Shown one piece after another: positions 1 through 4,933 of a stretch of 64,000 nucleotides of DNA. The translations under genes were made by a program, and so were the position numbers. Numbering within the stretch: position 1 is the first letter of the stretch; each line of letters begins with the position of its first letter. The DNA comes from a virus. The notes under the pieces are model-generated. The model saw only the letters and a program-made list of their open reading frames with translations. It did not search any database and was not told where the DNA came from. The stretch is from positions 12,326 to 76,325 of IMG/VR virus record IMGVR_UViG_3300045988_106833; one strand, given 5' to 3'.

Positions 1-1
1 C

Positions 2-247
2 CCGGAAGCCCCGTCCCAGGAGGGACAGTCCGAGGAAGAGAGATTCCGTACATGGACTGAAACGTATGGTAAGGACATCGTAAATCATTTACTGACGTTA
101 GACGGGAAAAAGGATGGTGATGACAGTGATTACAGCATGATGTATAAACAGCATGAAAAAGAAAGCGAAGAGGATAAGAAAATGGCTTTGATTAATGCCG
201 TGCTTCCCAATATACAACTTCGCATTAAAGGCGTCACTGATAATTAG
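2..247 (+). CDS. 3' end of a gene that begins outside the window (81 codons, no in-window start)
   Basis: Uninterrupted frame from nt 2 to TAG at 245-247. GC-richer than the flanking non-coding DNA. Absent from the ORF track only because it has no start codon in the window. Confidence 0.35.
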   Translation, partial: PEAPSQEGQSEEERFRTWTETYGKDIVNHLLTLDGKKDGDDSDYSMMYKQHEKESEEDKKMALINAVLPNIQLRIKGVTDN

Positions 248-282
248 AACAATATTATTTTATTTCTCATATTAATAAAGCG

Positions 283-352
283 AAGCCGGATTTGAGACTC
301 GTTATGCGGATACCGAAGGTTGAAGAACGATATCAAGATAATCCGGCTTTTT
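283..352 (+). promoter_or_regulatory. long-loop inverted repeat (10-bp stem aagccggatt / aatccggctt) followed by T5; terminator-like or structured RNA element
   Basis: Perfect 10-bp inverted repeat at 283-292 and 340-349, with a T-run at 348-352 immediately 3' of it. Confidence 0.35.
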
Positions 353-519
353 GTGCGATTTCGTGAAGGATGGAACTATCATCGCCTTGGTTTAACAGAA
401 CAGACCTACGTACCTCCACTGTCCTGACGGGCATGGGAGCCCGTCTCGCCTACCAGCCTGCCTAATTCTCCACTGGCTACCTAATATAACTATTAACGTC
501 ACTCCATCACCTATCTCCT

Positions 520-546
520 TTCAGTCGATAGGTTCAGTCGTTTTTT
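520..546. repeat. two direct copies of TTCAGTCG (520-527, 533-540) followed by T6
   Basis: Read directly from the sequence. Related copies (TCAGTCG, TTCAGAGTCG) recur at 846-868. Confidence 0.4.
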
Positions 547-567
547 AAATGTTATATGTTCTTTCGC

Positions 568-588
568 ATCGTTCCCTTCGGTCACGAT
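568..588 (+). promoter_or_regulatory. hairpin A: stem atcgt/acgat around the 11-nt loop TCCCTTCGGTC
   Basis: 5-bp stem read directly. The loop is identical to that of hairpin B at 660-684 although the stems differ. Confidence 0.45.
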
Positions 589-659
589 ACTCAATCCTTT
601 AACACAATTAGGCAAACAATACAATAGACGGAAAAAGTAATTTGTTAATCTGTTCACTC

Positions 660-684
660 ACTTAACTCCCTTCGGTCGTTAAGT
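660..684 (+). promoter_or_regulatory. hairpin B: stem acttaac/gttaagt around the same 11-nt loop TCCCTTCGGTC
   Basis: 7-bp stem read directly. The loop matches hairpin A exactly, 92 nt upstream. Confidence 0.45.
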
Positions 685-838
685 TCATTCACTGTAAACA
701 ATTATATGAATAAATGGTAAAGTATATAAAATAATATAAATAATATAATGAGTAAGATCATTGAAAATGGTCTTAATATTAAGGAAAACGGAGACTATTC
801 ATAGGCGTAGTTTTAATTCAAGATTTGTTGTCCCACCA

Positions 839-868
839 CTGACGGTCAGTCGGTTACGTTCAGAGTCG
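839..868. repeat. palindrome ctgacGgtcag (839-849) overlapping further TCAGTCG-type repeats, followed by a T-run
   Basis: Read directly from the sequence. Confidence 0.35.
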
Positions 869-907
869 TTTTCCTGTCTCTTATCCAAACCGTCATAAAA
901 TAAAAAA

Positions 908-960
908 CCTTGTATCCTATTTCTCTCAAACCGGATACAAGGCAGTGCATTTTCTTCTTT
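908..960 (+). terminator. 10-bp stem hairpin (ccttgtatcc / ggatacaagg, 15-nt loop) followed by a T-rich tract
   Basis: Perfect inverted repeat at 908-917 and 933-942, followed by cagtgcattttcttcttttt. Confidence 0.4.
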
Positions 961-973
961 TTATATAAAATCA

Positions 974-981
974 TATATTTG
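974..981 (+). promoter_or_regulatory. Bacteroidota-type -7 promoter motif TAtaTTTG, 20 nt upstream of the ATG at 1002
   Basis: Matches the TAnnTTTG consensus of Bacteroides primary-sigma promoters (established). The position relative to the start codon is consistent. Confidence 0.4.
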
Positions 982-1001
982 CACTAAAAAACAAAAACAA
1001 T

Positions 1002-2021
1002 ATGGAGACAAAAATAATTGAAATAATGAATCCTCACAAGTTACACGACAAGCTCTTCAAGAAAGAGCAGGTCTCTCCGATAGAAGTTATATACAATAGC
1101 TTCAGCAACTTAGGGTACAATGTAGTACGCCGTCCAGCCGGTCAGTGTTTAGGCAATTTGAAATATTTTAATCTATTTTATGACAAACATACTCATCATT
1201 TCTATCAGAAAAACAGGAAGTTGAGATATTGTAGTAATTTTCTCATATCTGATTACTGGAAAGATAGAGTGCGATGTTTCATAGTTTGGAACTTTGGATT
1301 TGGAAGATTCTTTCCGTACAATGACTTTATTGAGGCTATGGTTTATGATTATCTTCGATATGGGAGAAAGTCAGTTCCTTATCTTAAAAGCGTGCAAGAG
1401 GCTGAAGAAAAGTGTGTAAGGTTCTATATCCGGTCTCAGATAGATATGCTTCGTAAGGAAGGATATGCCGCTTATCGGGCTAAGTTCAAGGAAGAACGTC
1501 CTCAGTATTTCATCGGAGACGATAGGACGGTGTTTAGATGCCTTGACAGCTCTTTAAAAAGAGAAGAGAAGATTGCTGCATGCGTAGCCCACAAAAGGGC
1601 CTTAAAAGAAGGGATAATGACTTCCTTCATTAATCACCTTAAGAAACATCCTACCACTTTATATTCGTGGTTTTCATCAGAGGTAGATAGCGAAGGAAAG
1701 AATAGGCTCTGTCTATCTGAAAAGGCTGTTTCGTATTTGAATAAGAGACTGGTTCGCAATGGGTTAAAGTCTCTTTCTGCATCATATCTTTTTAGAACGT
1801 TTAGAAAAATGGTGAAGATCTTGTTCGGTTCCAATGTCAGGTCGTTTTTGAATAGCTGTCTGATGTCTGTTTCAACAGAAGAGGTTTTAACCAAATCTAT
1901 GAAGAAAATAGTTTCCAAGACAGTGCTGTTTTTGTACAAGAGAGCGCTTAAGAACTATCGCCGGGCATGCGGTCTTAAGTACGACCCTGATTCGGGCGGT
2001 TTGTCTGCCGTACATGATTGA
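1002..2021 (+). CDS. hypothetical protein, 339 aa, with its own promoter
   Basis: Long ORF with a promoter motif upstream and a terminator-like hairpin before that. No confident domain identified. Confidence 0.6.
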   Translation: METKIIEIMNPHKLHDKLFKKEQVSPIEVIYNSFSNLGYNVVRRPAGQCLGNLKYFNLFYDKHTHHFYQKNRKLRYCSNFLISDYWKDRVRCFIVWNFGFGRFFPYNDFIEAMVYDYLRYGRKSVPYLKSVQEAEEKCVRFYIRSQIDMLRKEGYAAYRAKFKEERPQYFIGDDRTVFRCLDSSLKREEKIAACVAHKRALKEGIMTSFINHLKKHPTTLYSWFSSEVDSEGKNRLCLSEKAVSYLNKRLVRNGLKSLSASYLFRTFRKMVKILFGSNVRSFLNSCLMSVSTEEVLTKSMKKIVSKTVLFLYKRALKNYRRACGLKYDPDSGGLSAVHD

Positions 2022-2089: not shown

Positions 2090-4933
2090 ATGAGATTACG
2101 AATCATAAAAAATCGTCCGATATTCGCTCCTGGCGGTAGTGTTCAGGATAAGAGACAGGATATTAATGTATCCTCTACTCAGCCTATTCTTGATTATGGA
2201 ACGCCTGTTAATAAATGGGGTGAATCTGATATTCAGAATATATATATGCCTTCTGATGTGACTTTAGAAACAGAGGAGGGGGAGATAAATCCATTTAGTA
2301 GTATGCCTACATCCGATCCGTTTTTTGAGAATCATGATGCAGGATATGCAGGATATCTCGCTGATAATAGGGGCATGGTTAAAAACGTAGAGAAATCAGT
2401 CGTTAATAATGCAATGAATGTAGGTAGTGTTGATGCTGATTCCTATAAAGAAAAACGTTCCCAAGATGGTAATCCTCTTGATCCTATGACTATGCCATAT
2501 TATTCGCCTGATCTAACCGGCAGAGCTCAAATGTTCGGTACAAGTCTTGGTCGGATAAGAGCCGGTAATAAGGTCGGTGCTAATGTGGCTCAAGCTGCCT
2601 TGTCCGGTGTTAGTTTAGGATTAGGTCTTACTCGTAATATCATGGGAGCTTCATCTGCTGCGTATGCAGCCAGCAGAGACGAGCAGGCTGCAAGGGAAAA
2701 ACTTGCCAAGGAGCGTCGTCAGCAATTCATCAAGTGGGAACGTGAAGGTGGTGGCGTGAATTTAGGTAACGGTCAGAAGATGGATACGTCCGATATGACT
2801 GGAGAATACATTTATCCTCTTCCTAAATCTATGGAGGATAATGCTAACGTAGAGATAGAGAAAGGCGAGTATGTGCTGACTCCTGACTCCGTAGGACCTA
2901 TGGAAGCCAAAGGGAACAGACATGAAGATGGTGGCACTCCCGTTGATTTGCCTGAAGCTCATATTATTTCAGATTACCGTACTATCGATGATGATTTTGC
3001 TTCTTATATTAGAGAAAATTATGGTATTAAGGCAACGTCTAAAGACACATATGCTACACTCCTTGATCGATATAAGAAGAAGATCGGTTTGGCTGACAAG
3101 TACGAAGATCAGGAGCGTGTATATAAGAGATTAGAGAAAAATGAAGATGTAAAAGATAAAAACACATCCAATCTCAATGCATCTATTCTTTCTAAGTACG
3201 TTAATGAAAATCAGAAGGAGATAGACGATCTCGAAACACAATTCCGTTCTTTTGCCGAAATCGTTTATGGCAAACAGGAAGAATCTAAGCGTAACGAGAA
3301 GATGGATGCTTTCTTCAGGGATGGCGGGGTTGTTGATCTGAATCAGGTAAAGAAACAAGCCAAGGCTTTTAATATTGCAGAATCAGATGCCAAGAACTGG
3401 ATATATGACGAGTATGTTAAGCAAACCAGAAAAATGGCTGAAGGTGGACCTACTCAGAAGGAGCTGGAGGAACTTAGAAAGAATGCTATCGGCTACAGTA
3501 ATCTTATCAATCAGTTATTTGGACGAACTCTTAATATGACTGTATCTGATGTTAGCGGTCGTGAGCAGATTCTTAATCCTGATTCCAGTGTAAATGCCAA
3601 TCAGAATCTACAACATAGAAGTAATTTAGGATACGGCAGGGTAAATAATAAGGCGGTATCTAATTTGCTCGACGTAAACCGATGGGCTAACAAGTACAAT
3701 ACGGATGGTGATTTTGATACAGAAGGTTTCCAGAAAGGATACAACAGGCAATTAAATGCATTGTGGGCGTTAGCTGATGTAGGTGCTATCACGAATGCTG
3801 ATGCAGCCAAGAAATTCAGAGATGAGTACGGATTCTGGGGCCAGGATGCCGGAAGCTACGGAGGTAATCAGGCTTATAATTCATTTGCCGTAGATGATAA
3901 GTTTGGTCAGACAACAGCCACCCGTTCTTATTATGGATTGGACGTTGTTTCGGCAGAGCAAAAAAGATTGTTAAACGAAAAAGGAATTAAGAATTATGTT
4001 GACTTATTTGGTGATAAATCTGATGCCGCTAAGAAGATTCTGGGCTCCGATTATAATAAGTTTGTTGCTTTAAAAGATAGCGGGTTAATGCCGGAAATGG
4101 ACTTCGTTCTTGAGTCTGTTAAACCAGAAATGAAGCCTATTGAGGCCGGTCCCATAGCACCAGACCTTACACCGCCTAAGATTGGATCTCCTGGAAGGAT
4201 AGAGGTAAAACCGAAAGCAAGTACGCCTGCGACTGCAACCGACACCGATACAGAGGAGGTGGTTGAAGACAACGGACCTAAAGGACAGGGCAGACCGGCG
4301 GCGTTCGGTCCTATCTTCCCGGAAATGCTGAGAACCCTTGACACTGGCTTGGAAATAGAAGGTCTAGAGAGGCATCAAGCACCACGTATAGACCCGGTTC
4401 TCCAATCTGCTGATCAGTATATCAACGAGCTCAACCGCGCGACATCGGCTCAGTTAGACGCAGTAGGTGACGTGCCCGACTCCCAGCGAGCTGCTATTCT
4501 GGCTAATATGAACGCCATAGCTGGAAGCAATATAGCTAAGTACGTTAATGAAGTAAATTTCAGTAACGCAAGGCAAATAAACGAAGCTGACAGGTTCAAT
4601 GAAATGGCTTATGTTCAGACAGATGATAAGAACATAGCAGAAAGGCAACGTTATGAATCTGGGTTGTTGAAAGCTATGGCTATAAGGGATGAAAATCTTG
4701 CTCGTTATTATGACAGCATAAACAGCGAGATACAGAATAAGTTCAATGTTCGTACATCGTTGAATACCATAGCCTCTATAGCTCCAAATATGAGAATGCT
4801 TCCAAGTGGTCAAATTATTTACGTTCAAGGTAATCAGGATGTGATGAATATGGGTGATTATTCTACACCTTATTTGAAGAGCTTGGAGGATGATGAAGAA
4901 GATAAATATAAAAAGAGAAGGAGAAATAGCTGA
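2090..4933 (+). CDS. giant protein 1 (947 aa from the ATG at 2090), unknown function, possibly virion-associated
   Basis: ORF-track frame. The start was moved to the first ATG downstream of the promoter motif. Central coiled-coil-like segment. Its stop overlaps the next start (ATGA at 4931-4935). Confidence 0.65.
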   Translation: MRLRIIKNRPIFAPGGSVQDKRQDINVSSTQPILDYGTPVNKWGESDIQNIYMPSDVTLETEEGEINPFSSMPTSDPFFENHDAGYAGYLADNRGMVKNVEKSVVNNAMNVGSVDADSYKEKRSQDGNPLDPMTMPYYSPDLTGRAQMFGTSLGRIRAGNKVGANVAQAALSGVSLGLGLTRNIMGASSAAYAASRDEQAAREKLAKERRQQFIKWEREGGGVNLGNGQKMDTSDMTGEYIYPLPKSMEDNANVEIEKGEYVLTPDSVGPMEAKGNRHEDGGTPVDLPEAHIISDYRTIDDDFASYIRENYGIKATSKDTYATLLDRYKKKIGLADKYEDQERVYKRLEKNEDVKDKNTSNLNASILSKYVNENQKEIDDLETQFRSFAEIVYGKQEESKRNEKMDAFFRDGGVVDLNQVKKQAKAFNIAESDAKNWIYDEYVKQTRKMAEGGPTQKELEELRKNAIGYSNLINQLFGRTLNMTVSDVSGREQILNPDSSVNANQNLQHRSNLGYGRVNNKAVSNLLDVNRWANKYNTDGDFDTEGFQKGYNRQLNALWALADVGAITNADAAKKFRDEYGFWGQDAGSYGGNQAYNSFAVDDKFGQTTATRSYYGLDVVSAEQKRLLNEKGIKNYVDLFGDKSDAAKKILGSDYNKFVALKDSGLMPEMDFVLESVKPEMKPIEAGPIAPDLTPPKIGSPGRIEVKPKASTPATATDTDTEEVVEDNGPKGQGRPAAFGPIFPEMLRTLDTGLEIEGLERHQAPRIDPVLQSADQYINELNRATSAQLDAVGDVPDSQRAAILANMNAIAGSNIAKYVNEVNFSNARQINEADRFNEMAYVQTDDKNIAERQRYESGLLKAMAIRDENLARYYDSINSEIQNKFNVRTSLNTIASIAPNMRMLPSGQIIYVQGNQDVMNMGDYSTPYLKSLEDDEEDKYKKRRRNS

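What the first reader, a model, noticed from the sequence alone, without database searches (positions are those of the whole stretch)
500..960. Two hairpins with an identical 11-nt loop (TCCCTTCGGTC) but different stems, plus TTCAGTCG repeats, in a 750-nt non-coding leader
At 568-588 and 660-684 the stems atcgt/acgat and acttaac/gttaagt enclose exactly the same loop. Conservation of the loop with complete stem covariation argues that the folded structure, RNA or single-stranded DNA, is what is selected.

Candidate functions: hairpin promoters for a phage RNA polymerase (as in N4-like systems), a binding site for a phage protein, or a small structured RNA. The loop itself contains a CC-UUC-GG mini-hairpin.

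The same region carries TTCAGTCG direct repeats (520-546, 846-868), a palindrome (839-849) and two terminator-like hairpins. It sits between the end of an upstream gene and the promoter of the first plus-strand gene.
Basis: seen in the sequence. Interest (0 to 1): 0.65.

Follow-up and report, generated by a model that had tools for sequence, protein, structure and literature searches.

The report
Strand-specific G·A-zipper hairpins in phage
A non-coding stretch of a gut crAss-like phage carries three long hairpins of unusual design (ordinary base pairs alternating with G·A pairs, all capped by the same 11-base tip) that fold only on the strand opposite the neighbouring genes and are kept by compensating mutations in related phages, so it is probably a new structured RNA (or a single-stranded-DNA signal) whose job is still unknown.

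Summary
There are three, not two, hairpins with the 11-nt tip TCCYTTCRGTC: tips at 516-526, 573-583 and 667-677. They are the only three in 64 kb (0.1 expected).

Comparison with about 120 related leaders from epsilon crAss-like phages shows compensatory changes in the stems and inside the tip. The folding strand is the minus strand: 98.5% of cells pair there against 81% on plus, with 122 G·U cells against 4 A·C cells. RNAalifold gives -32.3 kcal/mol for minus and -9.4 for plus.

Read on minus, each hairpin is a rod of about 40 nt. Watson-Crick steps alternate with tandem G·A pairs, and the cap is GA-NN-GNA-N'N'-GA.

The rods sit in an element of about 300 nt that also has a covarying hairpin and an invariant purine-rich block. 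This element stays next to a 339-aa protein gene of unknown fold in two different genomic contexts. No Rfam family matches.

Best reading: a new minus-strand structured non-coding RNA functionally tied to that gene (confidence 0.45). Rivals are single-stranded-DNA priming or promoter signals. Transcription was not shown.

The parts
652..692 (-). Rod H3. Minus strand: 5'-GUGAAUGA-ACUUAAC-[GACCGAAGGGA]-GUUAAGU-GAGUGAAC. Seven Watson-Crick pairs under the cap (cap 667-677), then G·A/A·G, U·G, A-U, G·A/A·G, U-A, G-C.
   Evidence: (RNA MFE -14.5 kcal/mol, z -3.7, against -7.6 on plus). Covariation (helices 1 and 2).
560..596 (-). Rod H2. Minus strand: 5'-GAUUGAG-UAUCGU-[GACCGAAGGGA]-ACGAUG-CGAAAGA. 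Cap at 573-583.
   Evidence: (-13.5, z -3.8, against -5.3 on plus). Helix 4: 5 of 10 pairs show compensatory changes. Stem is ATCGT/ACGAT here, ATATC/GATAT in L204 and TATCG/CGATA in L200.
501..541 (-). Minus strand: 5'-ACGACUGA-ACCUAUC-[GACUGAAAGGA]-GAUAGGU-GAUGGAGU. Cap at 516-526. It contains both exact TTCAGTCG copies (520-527 and 533-540 on plus).
   Evidence: (-14.0, z -3.65). Cap pair 3-9 is C-G here and G-C in group B. Cap pair 4-8 is U-A, U·G or C-G among relatives.
426..445 (-). Hairpin P4 (GACGGGC-UCCCAU-GCCCGUC).
   Evidence: Helix 8: 3 of 6 pairs show compensatory changes. Group B has GCUGU/AUGGC with G·U pairs that exist only on the minus strand.
446..480 (-). Nearly invariant purine-rich block. 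Minus strand: GUAGCCAGUGGAGAAUUAGGCAGGCUGGUAGGCGA, with GG runs and two GUAG. CAGGACAG follows at 419-426.
   Evidence: This is the most conserved part of the leader across groups A, B and C, and it is recognisable in L245. Its pairing is not supported by covariation (helix 7).
623..629 (-). 5' half of a possible long-range helix (GUCUAUU) pairing with GGUAGGC at 448-454. Weak.
   Evidence: Helix 3: 98% paired, but only one-sided C/U changes opposite G and no compensatory change.
693..815 (.). A+T-rich segment next to rod H3, strongly conserved within the phage group.
   Evidence: Nucleotide diversity 0.014 against 0.055-0.063 at third codon positions. A+T-rich in all lineages.
831..849 (.). 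Conserved motif CCACC-CTGA-N3-TCAG.
   Evidence: CTGACGGTCAG here, CTGACGTTCAG in L204, CTGATGCTCAG in group B.
892..942 (-). Intrinsic terminator oriented on the minus strand: stem 908-917/933-942, then a U-run on minus (A-run 892-907 on plus).
   Evidence: The stem covaries (CCTTGTATCC here, CCTGTCCC in L200, GAATGCCTCC in L245). A T-run follows on the minus strand in all seven lineages, including L247 and L248.
974..981 (+). -7 box TATATTTG (Bacteroidetes TAnnTTTG type) of the promoter of the 339-aa gene.
   Evidence: A perfect TAnnTTTG sits at the same place in 7 of 7 lineages.
1002..2021 (+). Gene for a 339-aa basic protein of unknown fold. It always accompanies the element.
   Evidence: No Pfam or PHROG family. 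AlphaFold2 mean pLDDT 70, no fold match. Homologues at 60%, 44% and 23-25% identity all have a long non-coding region upstream.
283..354 (+). Terminator hairpin of the upstream lysozyme gene (stem 283-292/340-349 plus T-run). It bounds the element on the left and is not part of the conserved element.
   Evidence: Present only where the lysozyme gene is upstream.

Best explanation
Window 405-712, read on the minus strand, is a conserved folded element that is most likely a non-coding RNA of about 300-450 nt. It would be transcribed leftwards, divergently from the 339-aa gene.

Its core is three (two to four in relatives) 'G·A-zipper' rods. In each, Watson-Crick dinucleotide steps alternate with tandem sheared G·A/A·G pairs. 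Each rod ends in the cap GA-NN-GNA-N'N'-GA: a tandem G·A, a 2-bp mini-helix and a GNA triloop. A covarying hairpin (P4) and an invariant purine-rich block follow.

The repeated rods, alike in shape but different in sequence, are most simply read as repeated docking sites for a protein. The candidate partner or regulator is the neighbouring 339-aa basic protein, which co-inherits with the element.

What is shown: the structure, the folding strand, purifying selection, and linkage to the gene. What is inferred: that the folded strand is RNA, where the transcript begins and ends, and that the protein binds it.
For: Structure:
- On an alignment of 18 leaders from three lineages, 43 pairs in 8 helices are 98.5% paired. 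Shuffles give 90.7% (0 of 500 reach the observed value) and slid controls give 34-45%. Fourteen pairs show compensatory changes.

Strand:
- The same helices are only 81.4% paired on the plus strand.
- There are 122 G·U cells in 18 pairs against 4 A·C cells in 3 pairs.
- RNAalifold gives -32.3 kcal/mol for minus (43 pairs) and -9.4 for plus (23 pairs).
- Single rods fold at -13.5 to -14.5 kcal/mol on minus (z about -3.7) against -5.3 to -8.6 on plus.
- The whole leader has z -4.3 on minus and -2.2 on plus.
- GC skew inverts locally so that G exceeds C on minus, as on the coding strand of the flanking genes.

RNA-like features:
- Fixed G·U pairs, including tandem ones.
- A GNRA tetraloop (GUGA) replaces the GNA triloop in lineage L245.
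- Tandem G·A steps interchange with Watson-Crick steps at the same positions between modules.

Selection:
- Diversity in the rods is 0.013-0.029 against 0.055-0.063 at third codon positions.

Linkage:
- The leader plus gene occurs after a lysozyme gene and also, as a 60%-identical paralogue 34-40 kb away in the same contigs, after a DUF6808 gene.
- It persists in homologues down to 44% identity.

Minus-strand transcription at the locus:
- A canonical minus-strand terminator is conserved in 7 of 7 lineages.

Precedent:
- The crAss-like phage phi14:2 expresses long intergenic RNAs of unknown function at high level (bioRxiv 10.1101/2020.03.07.982082).
Against: - No transcript data were available.
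- No convincing Bacteroidetes-type promoter (TTTG / TAnnTTTG) lies on the minus strand just upstream of rod H3. Only a conserved TAAT-like element is there.
- The conserved minus-strand terminator lies upstream of the element, so it would block rather than feed it.
- There is no clear minus-strand terminator at the 3' side in group B.
- The C-GNA-G tip is reported to be much more stable as DNA than as RNA (PMC13037366).
- G·T wobbles and tandem G·A pairs are also tolerated in single-stranded DNA, so the strand evidence does not separate RNA from DNA.
- Some copies carry changes at 'conserved' cap positions: GACCAAAGGGA in 14 of 81 H2 copies.
- Binding by the 339-aa protein is pure inference. 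Its fold matches nothing.
Confidence: 0.45

Rival explanations
1. The rods act as single-stranded DNA. When the adjacent A+T-rich segment is unwound, the minus strand folds into nuclease- and SSB-resistant hairpins. These serve as single-strand initiation signals for a primase, like ssiA/ssiB of RSF1010 or the G4 complementary-strand origin. The locus would then be a replication origin, with the 339-aa protein as its initiator.
For: - The tip CCGAAGG is the same mini-hairpin heptamer reported in ssiA. C-GNA-G and C-GNNA-G tips are the classic extra-stable DNA mini-hairpins found at replication and transcription start sites (PMC13037366). The L245 variant C-GTGA-G fits the GNNA form.
- Origin-like layout: repeated units of variable number (2-4), an A+T-rich block, a G-rich block with short repeats (GGCAGGC / GGTAGGC), and a neighbouring gene that travels with it.
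- Epsilon crAss-like phages lack a DNA polymerase and have a minimal replication gene set with an atypical primase (PMC7886860; PMC11054128).
Against: - Cumulative GC skew does not switch at the locus.
- The locus lies in the structural/transcription gene block, far from the minus-strand gene half of the window.
- Two copies in the same orientation 34-40 kb apart would be odd for an origin, and csAssE-Sib has only one.
- All hairpins are on one strand only, whereas RSF1010 has one on each strand.
- Fixed and tandem G·U(T) pairs, and a possible long-range helix, fit RNA better.
- The protein shows no similarity to known initiators.
Confidence: 0.2
2. One reading: the rods are template-strand DNA hairpin promoters for the phage's virion RNA polymerase, as in N4. 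They would drive rightward (plus-sense) early transcription toward the 339-aa gene and the polymerase gene block.
For: - N4 promoters are template-strand hairpins tipped by the same C-G(R)A-G mini-hairpin with a sheared G:A pair, and there are three of them (PMC4496689; PMC13037366).
- The crAss-like virion polymerase gp66 transcribes single-stranded or denatured DNA but not duplex DNA, and no promoter motif is known for it.
- crAssE-Sib encodes a gp66-like polymerase.
- In the lysozyme-context copies the element sits upstream of the block of large virion proteins.
Against: - The motif occurs nowhere else in 64 kb, whereas early promoters should precede several operons.
- A terminator and a host-type promoter separate the rods from the gene.
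- Group B/C rods have too few Watson-Crick pairs for the complementary strand to fold, so cruciform extrusion from duplex DNA is implausible.
- The hairpins are 40-nt rods with an 11-nt cap, not 5-7 bp stems with a 3-nt loop.
- The polymerase is not of the N4/T7 type.
- P4 and the conserved block are left unexplained.
- In L248, rod-like hairpins lie on the gene's own strand.
Confidence: 0.1
3. The hairpins belong to a plus-strand RNA. That would be a 5' leader of the 339-aa gene, or an antitoxin-like repeat array in front of a toxin gene (type III toxin-antitoxin architecture: repeats, terminator, gene).
For: - The order repeats, terminator-like hairpin, gene resembles ToxIN-type loci (own knowledge).
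- The hairpin stems are also complementary on the plus strand.
Against: - The plus strand pairs far worse: 81% against 98.5%, and -9.4 against -32.3 kcal/mol.
- On plus, the conserved G·A steps become pyrimidine mismatches.
- The gene's conserved promoter lies downstream of the hairpins.
- The terminator's U-run is on the minus strand.
- The units are not near-identical tandem repeats: spacings are 57 and 94 nt and the stems differ.
- The protein matches no toxin family.
Confidence: 0.03
4. The hairpins are selfish or neutral repeats (MITE/REP-like palindromic elements) that happen to sit here, with no function for the phage.
For: - Copy number varies between strains: 4 in L228, 2 in L234 and L237.
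- An unrelated giant-virus MAG carries dozens of intergenic hairpin repeats with the very same 11-nt cap, in both orientations.
Against: - The hairpins are found only at this locus in the window.
- They are syntenic with the same gene down to 44% protein identity, with compensatory evolution.
- Diversity is reduced relative to synonymous sites.
- The stems of the three copies are unrelated in sequence, unlike recently spread repeats.
Confidence: 0.07

Closest known systems
Bacteriophage N4 virion-RNA-polymerase promoter hairpins
   Same: - Strand-specific hairpins with conserved tip and variable stems.
- Three copies.
- Tip 5'-C-G(N)A-G-3' with a sheared G:A pair.
- A phage that packages an RNA polymerase active on single-stranded DNA.
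   Different: - N4 hairpins are 5-7 bp stems closed directly by the 3-nt loop. Here the triloop sits on a 2-bp mini-helix inside an 11-nt cap on a 40-nt G·A-rich rod.
- The polymerase here is gp66-like (two-barrel type), not T7-like.
- The site is not in front of an early operon, and it is flanked by other conserved structure.
DNA mini-hairpins d(GCGNAGC)/d(GCGNNAGC) at single-strand initiation sites (RSF1010 ssiA 'CCGAAGG', phage G4 origin)
   Same: - Identical heptamer CCGAAGG on the folding strand.
- GNA (and, in L245, GNNA) loop closed by C-G.
- An adjacent A+T-rich region.
   Different: - No evidence that this DNA is ever single-stranded or used for priming.
- All copies are on one strand.
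- The tip is flanked by tandem G·A pairs and long arms, which ssiA does not have.
- The helices are rich in G·U.
Long intergenic non-coding RNAs of crAss-like phage phi14:2 (g004-g006 region)
   Same: A long non-coding region of a crAss-like phage. The phi14:2 RNAs are abundant and of unknown function.
   Different: No sequence or motif similarity. No G·A rods were found in phi14:2 positions 2905-4601. Expression of the present element is untested.
Large structured phage-associated RNAs (ROOL, GOLLD) and other Rfam families
   Same: A structured non-coding element of several hundred nucleotides in a phage genome, with covariation support.
   Different: No match to any of 4227 Rfam models, even at E<=10, in the window or at gathering score in five related loci. 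The G·A-zipper architecture is not, to my knowledge, a feature of those families.
Repeated protein-binding RNA hairpins (lambda boxB/N, MS2 operator) and type III antitoxin repeats (ToxI)
   Same: Several hairpins with the same loop and free stems next to a gene for a small basic protein. A terminator lies between the repeats and the gene.
   Different: - The element is on the opposite strand to the gene.
- The units are irregularly spaced and diverged.
- The protein belongs to no known RNA-binding or toxin family.

Membership tests
N4-type hairpin promoter | Hairpin tip 5'-C-G-R/N-A-G-3' (3-nt loop, sheared G:A) on one specific strand | tested here: met
   The minus-strand caps contain C-GAA-G, C-GGA-G or C-GUA-G in lineages A, B and C. 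The N4 definition is taken from PMC4496689 and PMC13037366.
N4-type hairpin promoter | Simple 5-7 bp stem closed directly by the 3-nt loop, able to extrude from supercoiled duplex | tested here: not met
   The triloop sits on only 2 bp inside an 11-nt cap. The arms contain tandem G·A steps that are pyrimidine mismatches on the other strand. Group B/C rods have few Watson-Crick pairs.
N4-type hairpin promoter | T7-like virion RNA polymerase, with promoters in front of early operons and a start site a fixed distance downstream | not testable with these tools
   The literature reports a gp66-like (phi14:2-type) polymerase in crAssE-Sib. No transcript ends are available. The motif is absent from the rest of the window.
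Single-strand initiation signal / DNA mini-hairpin (ssiA, G4 ori) | GCGNAGC/CCGAAGG-type mini-hairpin sequence | tested here: met
   CCGAAGG lies on the minus strand in all three caps of the window.
Single-strand initiation signal / DNA mini-hairpin (ssiA, G4 ori) | Functions as single-stranded DNA recognised by a primase at a replication origin | not testable with these tools
   Only indirect evidence: there is no switch of cumulative GC skew at the locus.
Any described RNA family (Rfam 15) | Covariance-model match at or near the family's gathering score | tested here: not met
   Window 1-2000 at E<=10 gives only four chance-level hits, none over the hairpins. Six related loci at gathering score give two tRNAs only.
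Bacterial/phage Y RNA (partner of Ro60) | Ro-binding stem plus tRNA-like module, encoded near the Ro60 gene | tested here: not met
   A Ro60-like gene lies about 3.4 kb upstream in csAssE-Sib. There is no Y-RNA model hit and no tRNA-like element. The paralogous copy of the element sits in an unrelated context.
Type III toxin-antitoxin (ToxI-like repeats + toxin) | Near-identical tandem direct repeats on the same strand as, and upstream of, a ToxN/AbiEii-type gene | tested here: not met
   The units are diverged and irregularly spaced. The folding strand is opposite to the gene. The protein has no family match.
Kink-turn / box C/D motif | Tandem sheared G·A pairs preceded by a 3-nt bulge between a canonical and a non-canonical stem | tested here: not met
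   The tandem G·A steps are flanked on both sides by Watson-Crick steps without a 3-nt bulge. The GA dinucleotides are 2 nt apart, not 1 as in RUGAUGA.
Intrinsic terminator | G+C-rich hairpin followed directly by a U-run | tested here: not met
   No T-run follows any of the three rods on either strand. The separate hairpin at 908-942 does meet the definition, on the minus strand.

The most novel reading that the evidence does not exclude
The G·A-zipper rods are a new class of nucleic-acid recognition module used by epsilon crAss-like phages. There are two versions of this reading:
- The rods are the RNA scaffold of a previously unseen ribonucleoprotein formed with the 339-aa protein of novel fold.
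- The rods are the long-sought single-stranded-DNA entry signals for the crAss-type virion RNA polymerase or primase. That polymerase is known to need single-stranded templates, and no promoter has been found for it.
Probability: 0.2. Interest if true: 0.8.

Novelty: new variant of a known kind. Interest (0 to 1): 0.6.

Why it matters
- CrAss-like phages are the most abundant viruses of the human gut, yet their regulation and replication are largely unknown. Their virion polymerase has no known promoter, and epsilon-group phages have no DNA polymerase.
- This is a conserved, strand-specific folded element with an unusual and easily recognisable architecture, tied to an uncharacterised protein family. 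That makes it a concrete handle for experiments: strand-specific RNA-seq, binding assays, and in-vitro transcription or priming on oligonucleotides.
- Rods in which tandem G·A pairs alternate regularly with Watson-Crick steps would also interest RNA and DNA structural biologists.
- The element would be a new entry for RNA family databases.

Tried and rejected
- **Rfam.** Scans of the window (E<=10) and of six related loci found nothing.
- **tRNA/tmRNA.** The scan found none.
- **Simple promoter/terminator scan.** It gave no more promoter-like sites than chance and no terminator. The two real terminator hairpins have loops too long for that scanner.
- **Y RNA idea**, prompted by the Ro60 gene upstream. 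No support.
- **phi14:2 long non-coding region.** Checked for G·A rods; none.
- **Literature.** A search for the 11-mer returned only primers and the like.
- **CsrA-type GGA sites.** Rejected because the GGA is lost in group B caps (GAGCGAAGCGA).
- **GC skew.** It gave no origin-like switch.
- **DNA-parameter folding.** It did not discriminate RNA from DNA.
- **Covariance model.** A model of the module was not built, because MAFFT places the bulges of A-type and B-type rods in different registers.
Full report
**Context.** The window is 96.9% identical to phage csAssE-Sib (OR575929.1), a 151-kb epsilon-group crAss-like phage from the human gut. Positions 248-1001 are non-coding. They lie between the end of a tail-lysozyme gene and a 339-aa ORF (1002-2021). 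That ORF opens a run of large plus-strand virion genes.

**Observation.** A third hairpin was missed: acctatc-TCCTTTCAGTC-gataggt at 509-533. A structure-aware scan looked for the cap GA-NN-GNA-N'N'-GA with a stem of at least 4 bp, on both strands. It finds exactly these three sites in 64 kb, all on the minus strand, against 0.115 expected from shuffles. The TTCAGTCG repeat is exact only at 520 and 533 and is not significant alone. The palindrome at 839-849 and the two terminator-like hairpins are real.

**Relatives.** The 339-aa protein has no Pfam or PHROG family and few homologues: 16 and 20 proteins in two very large databases. Four groups of homologous leaders were recovered.
- *Group A.* Eighty close relatives (96-99% protein identity) carry the same leader.
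- *Group C.* An 83%-identical homologue (L204) sits in the same lysozyme context.
- *Group B.* A 60%-identical homologue sits in a different context, after a DUF6808 gene, yet is again preceded by about 750 nt of homologous non-coding DNA.
- *Group D.* A 44%-identical homologue (L245) keeps a recognisable leader.

Groups A and B are paralogous copies. Both occur in the same contigs, 34-40 kb apart and in the same orientation; examples are contigs ..._103017, _099418 and _114509. The window holds only copy A, and csAssE-Sib has only copy A. Homologues at 23-25% identity (L247, L248) also have 0.5-1.1 kb non-coding regions upstream. The element and the gene therefore travel together.

**Structure and strand.** The 11-nt loop is itself structured.
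- Its positions 3-9 change from C-G to G-C (group B, H1) and to A-T (L204, H3).
- Positions 4-8 are C-G, T-A or, very often, C·A on the plus strand.
- On the minus strand C·A is a U·G wobble, and the central triplet TTC/TCC/TAC becomes GAA/GGA/GUA, a GNA triloop.

An alignment of 18 leaders from groups A, B and C was folded on the minus strand.
- It gives 43 pairs in 8 helices at -32.3 kcal/mol.
- 98.5% of cells pair, against 90.7% in shuffles (0 of 500 reach the observed value) and 34-45% in slid controls. Fourteen pairs show compensatory change.
- The same helices read on the plus strand are 81.4% paired. There are 122 G·U cells in 18 pairs against 4 A·C cells in 3 pairs.
- An independent plus-strand fold reaches only -9.4 kcal/mol with 23 pairs.

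Other measures agree.
- Single modules fold at -13.5 to -14.5 kcal/mol on minus (z about -3.7) against -5.3 to -8.6 on plus.
- The whole leader has z -4.3 on minus and -2.2 on plus.
- GC skew dips locally, so that G exceeds C on minus, as it does on the coding strand of the flanking genes.

The folding strand is the minus strand.

**Anatomy of a module.**
- Two Watson-Crick (or G·U) pairs alternate with tandem G·A/A·G steps. H3, for example, reads 7 bp, GA/GA, U·G, A-U, GA/GA, U-A, G-C.
- Consensus on minus: 5'-RY-GA-NN-GA-(7-9 nt)-[GA-NN-GNA-N'N'-GA]-(7 nt)-GA-NN-GA-AC.
- The rods span 652-692, 560-596 and 501-541.
- In groups B and C the inner 'stem' is itself interrupted by a tandem G·A (ACC-GA-A(U)C / G-U-GA-GGU). 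In L204 H3 the outer G·A steps are replaced by Watson-Crick pairs. G·A steps and Watson-Crick steps thus interchange at the same helical positions.
- L245 uses GA-C-GUGA-G-GA: one pair plus a GNRA/GNNA tetraloop.
- The TTCAGTCG 'repeat' is CGACUGAA on minus, that is, the GA-NN-GA periodicity seen once in the 5' arm and once in the cap of H1.

**Rest of the element.**
- Downstream on minus lie an almost invariant purine-rich block (446-480; GUAGCCAGUGGAGAAUUAGGCAGGCUGGUAGGCGA) and a covarying hairpin P4 (426-445).
- A long-range helix (623-629 with 448-454) is possible but has only one-sided changes.
- Upstream on minus lie a conserved A+T-rich segment, the motif CCACC-CTGA-N3-TCAG, and a hairpin whose stem covaries and which is followed by a U-run on the minus strand in all seven lineages. 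That is a minus-strand intrinsic terminator.
- Next comes the plus-strand TAnnTTTG promoter of the gene, perfect in 7 of 7 lineages.
- The hairpins are therefore not part of the gene's transcribed leader.

**Selection.** Within group A, nucleotide diversity is 0.013-0.029 in the rods and 0.014 in the A+T-rich segment. It is 0.055-0.063 at third codon positions and 0.009 at first and second positions of the gene. The constraint is not absolute. H2 has GACCAAAGGGA in 14 of 81 sequences. The number of rods varies: 4 in L228, 2 in L234 and L237.

**What it is.** No Rfam family matches and no tRNA-like element is present. The B-type hairpin sequence occurs in IMG/VR only in this phage clade, at 61 loci.

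The best-supported reading is a new structured non-coding RNA made from the minus strand, divergent from the 339-aa gene, with the rods as repeated docking sites. Three things favour RNA:
- the many fixed G·U pairs, some of them tandem;
- the GNRA variant of the cap in L245;
- evidence for minus-strand transcription at the locus, namely the conserved terminator.

Long intergenic RNAs are already known in the crAss-like phage phi14:2, although that region has no such rods.

Three things weaken the RNA reading:
- there are no expression data;
- no clear promoter or 3' terminator was found for the element;
- the C-GNA-G tip is a classic DNA mini-hairpin, far more stable as DNA than as RNA. It is known from N4 virion-polymerase promoters, RSF1010 ssiA (the same heptamer, CCGAAGG) and the G4 origin.

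Two single-stranded-DNA rivals therefore remain.
- *Priming signal or origin.* Attractive because epsilon phages lack a DNA polymerase. Unsupported by GC skew, by position in the genome, and by the protein.
- *N4-like hairpin promoter for the gp66-type polymerase.* That enzyme needs single-stranded templates. Disfavoured because the motif is confined to this locus, an intervening terminator and host-type promoter separate it from the gene, and B-type rods could not extrude from duplex DNA.

A plus-strand leader, or a type III antitoxin-like array, is essentially refuted by the strand asymmetry.

**Verdict.** Its function is unknown. My preferred mechanism is a minus-strand ncRNA scaffold (0.45).

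Noticed in passing
outside the window; L200-L203, L206, L207-L244 (e.g. L200:5267-7071): Many relatives carry a second, paralogous copy of the whole module: a leader of about 750 nt plus a gene 60% identical at the protein level. It lies 34-40 kb upstream of the window's copy, in the same orientation, in a different gene context (after a DUF6808 gene and near the DGR reverse transcriptase). csAssE-Sib lacks it.
   Followed up: yes
window 892-1016, minus strand: A TAnnTTT[G/A] box lies on the minus strand over the first codons of the 339-aa gene (TATTTTTG at 1016-1009). It is present in 6 of 7 lineages. A canonical minus-strand terminator follows 60-110 nt downstream. Together they suggest a small antisense RNA covering the gene's promoter, 5' UTR and start codon.
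   Followed up: partly
L083, L099, L106, L129, L152, L158 (IMG/VR UViG GVMAG-S-1101165-105): An unrelated giant-virus MAG carries dozens of intergenic copies, in both orientations, of the hairpin repeat aatcCTACgagc-TCCCTTCGGTC/TCCTTTCAGTC-gctctccggatt. It has the very same 11-nt cap and the same C-G/T-A covariation at cap positions 4 and 8, and it also has G·A-type internal loops on the purine strand.
   Followed up: partly
L001:3335-5304 (csAssE-Sib, about 3.4-5 kb upstream of the window start): The phage encodes a Ro60 (TROVE)-like protein preceded by tRNA-Tyr and tRNA-Lys genes. No Y-RNA model matched anywhere in the 19-kb locus, so its RNA partner, if any, is unidentified.
   Followed up: partly
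window 313-319, plus strand: The loop of the lysozyme gene's terminator hairpin contains CCGAAGG on the plus strand, conserved in L204. This is the same mini-hairpin heptamer as in the caps, but on the other strand and without the flanking GA/GA.
   Followed up: no
L228, L234, L237 (group B leaders): The number of rods varies between strains. H3 is duplicated in L228 (4 caps), H2 is missing in L234 and H1 is missing in L237. This is consistent with recombination between the similar modules.
   Followed up: partly
L248:4075-4700: The 1.1-kb leader of a 25%-identical homologue is G-rich on the gene's own strand. It has a G-quadruplex-like run (GGGGAGGGGAAAGGGGAGAGGG) and two rod-like hairpins on the plus strand, with caps GAGCGACAGCGA and GAACTGTGTGA. 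The orientation of such elements relative to the gene may therefore not be fixed. Homology is unproven.
   Followed up: partly
window 831-849: CCACC followed by the palindrome CTGA-N3-TCAG is conserved in groups A, B and C, between the A+T-rich segment and the terminator. It looks like an operator for a dimeric DNA-binding protein.
   Followed up: no
L200:30-1169: A TnpB-like gene (OrfB_IS605 / Cas12f1-like_TNB) lies on the opposite strand about 4 kb upstream of the paralogous module in one relative.
   Followed up: no
L324, L328, L364, L370, L388, L406, L407, L417 (Natrinema and related haloarchaea): The degenerate rod pattern hit a sequence conserved across several haloarchaeal genomes: cgacgactgatgtgagt-GACTGAAAGGA-acgaacggaaggaggag. 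It shows the same alternating pairing pattern, but it may simply be coding on the opposite strand.
   Followed up: no
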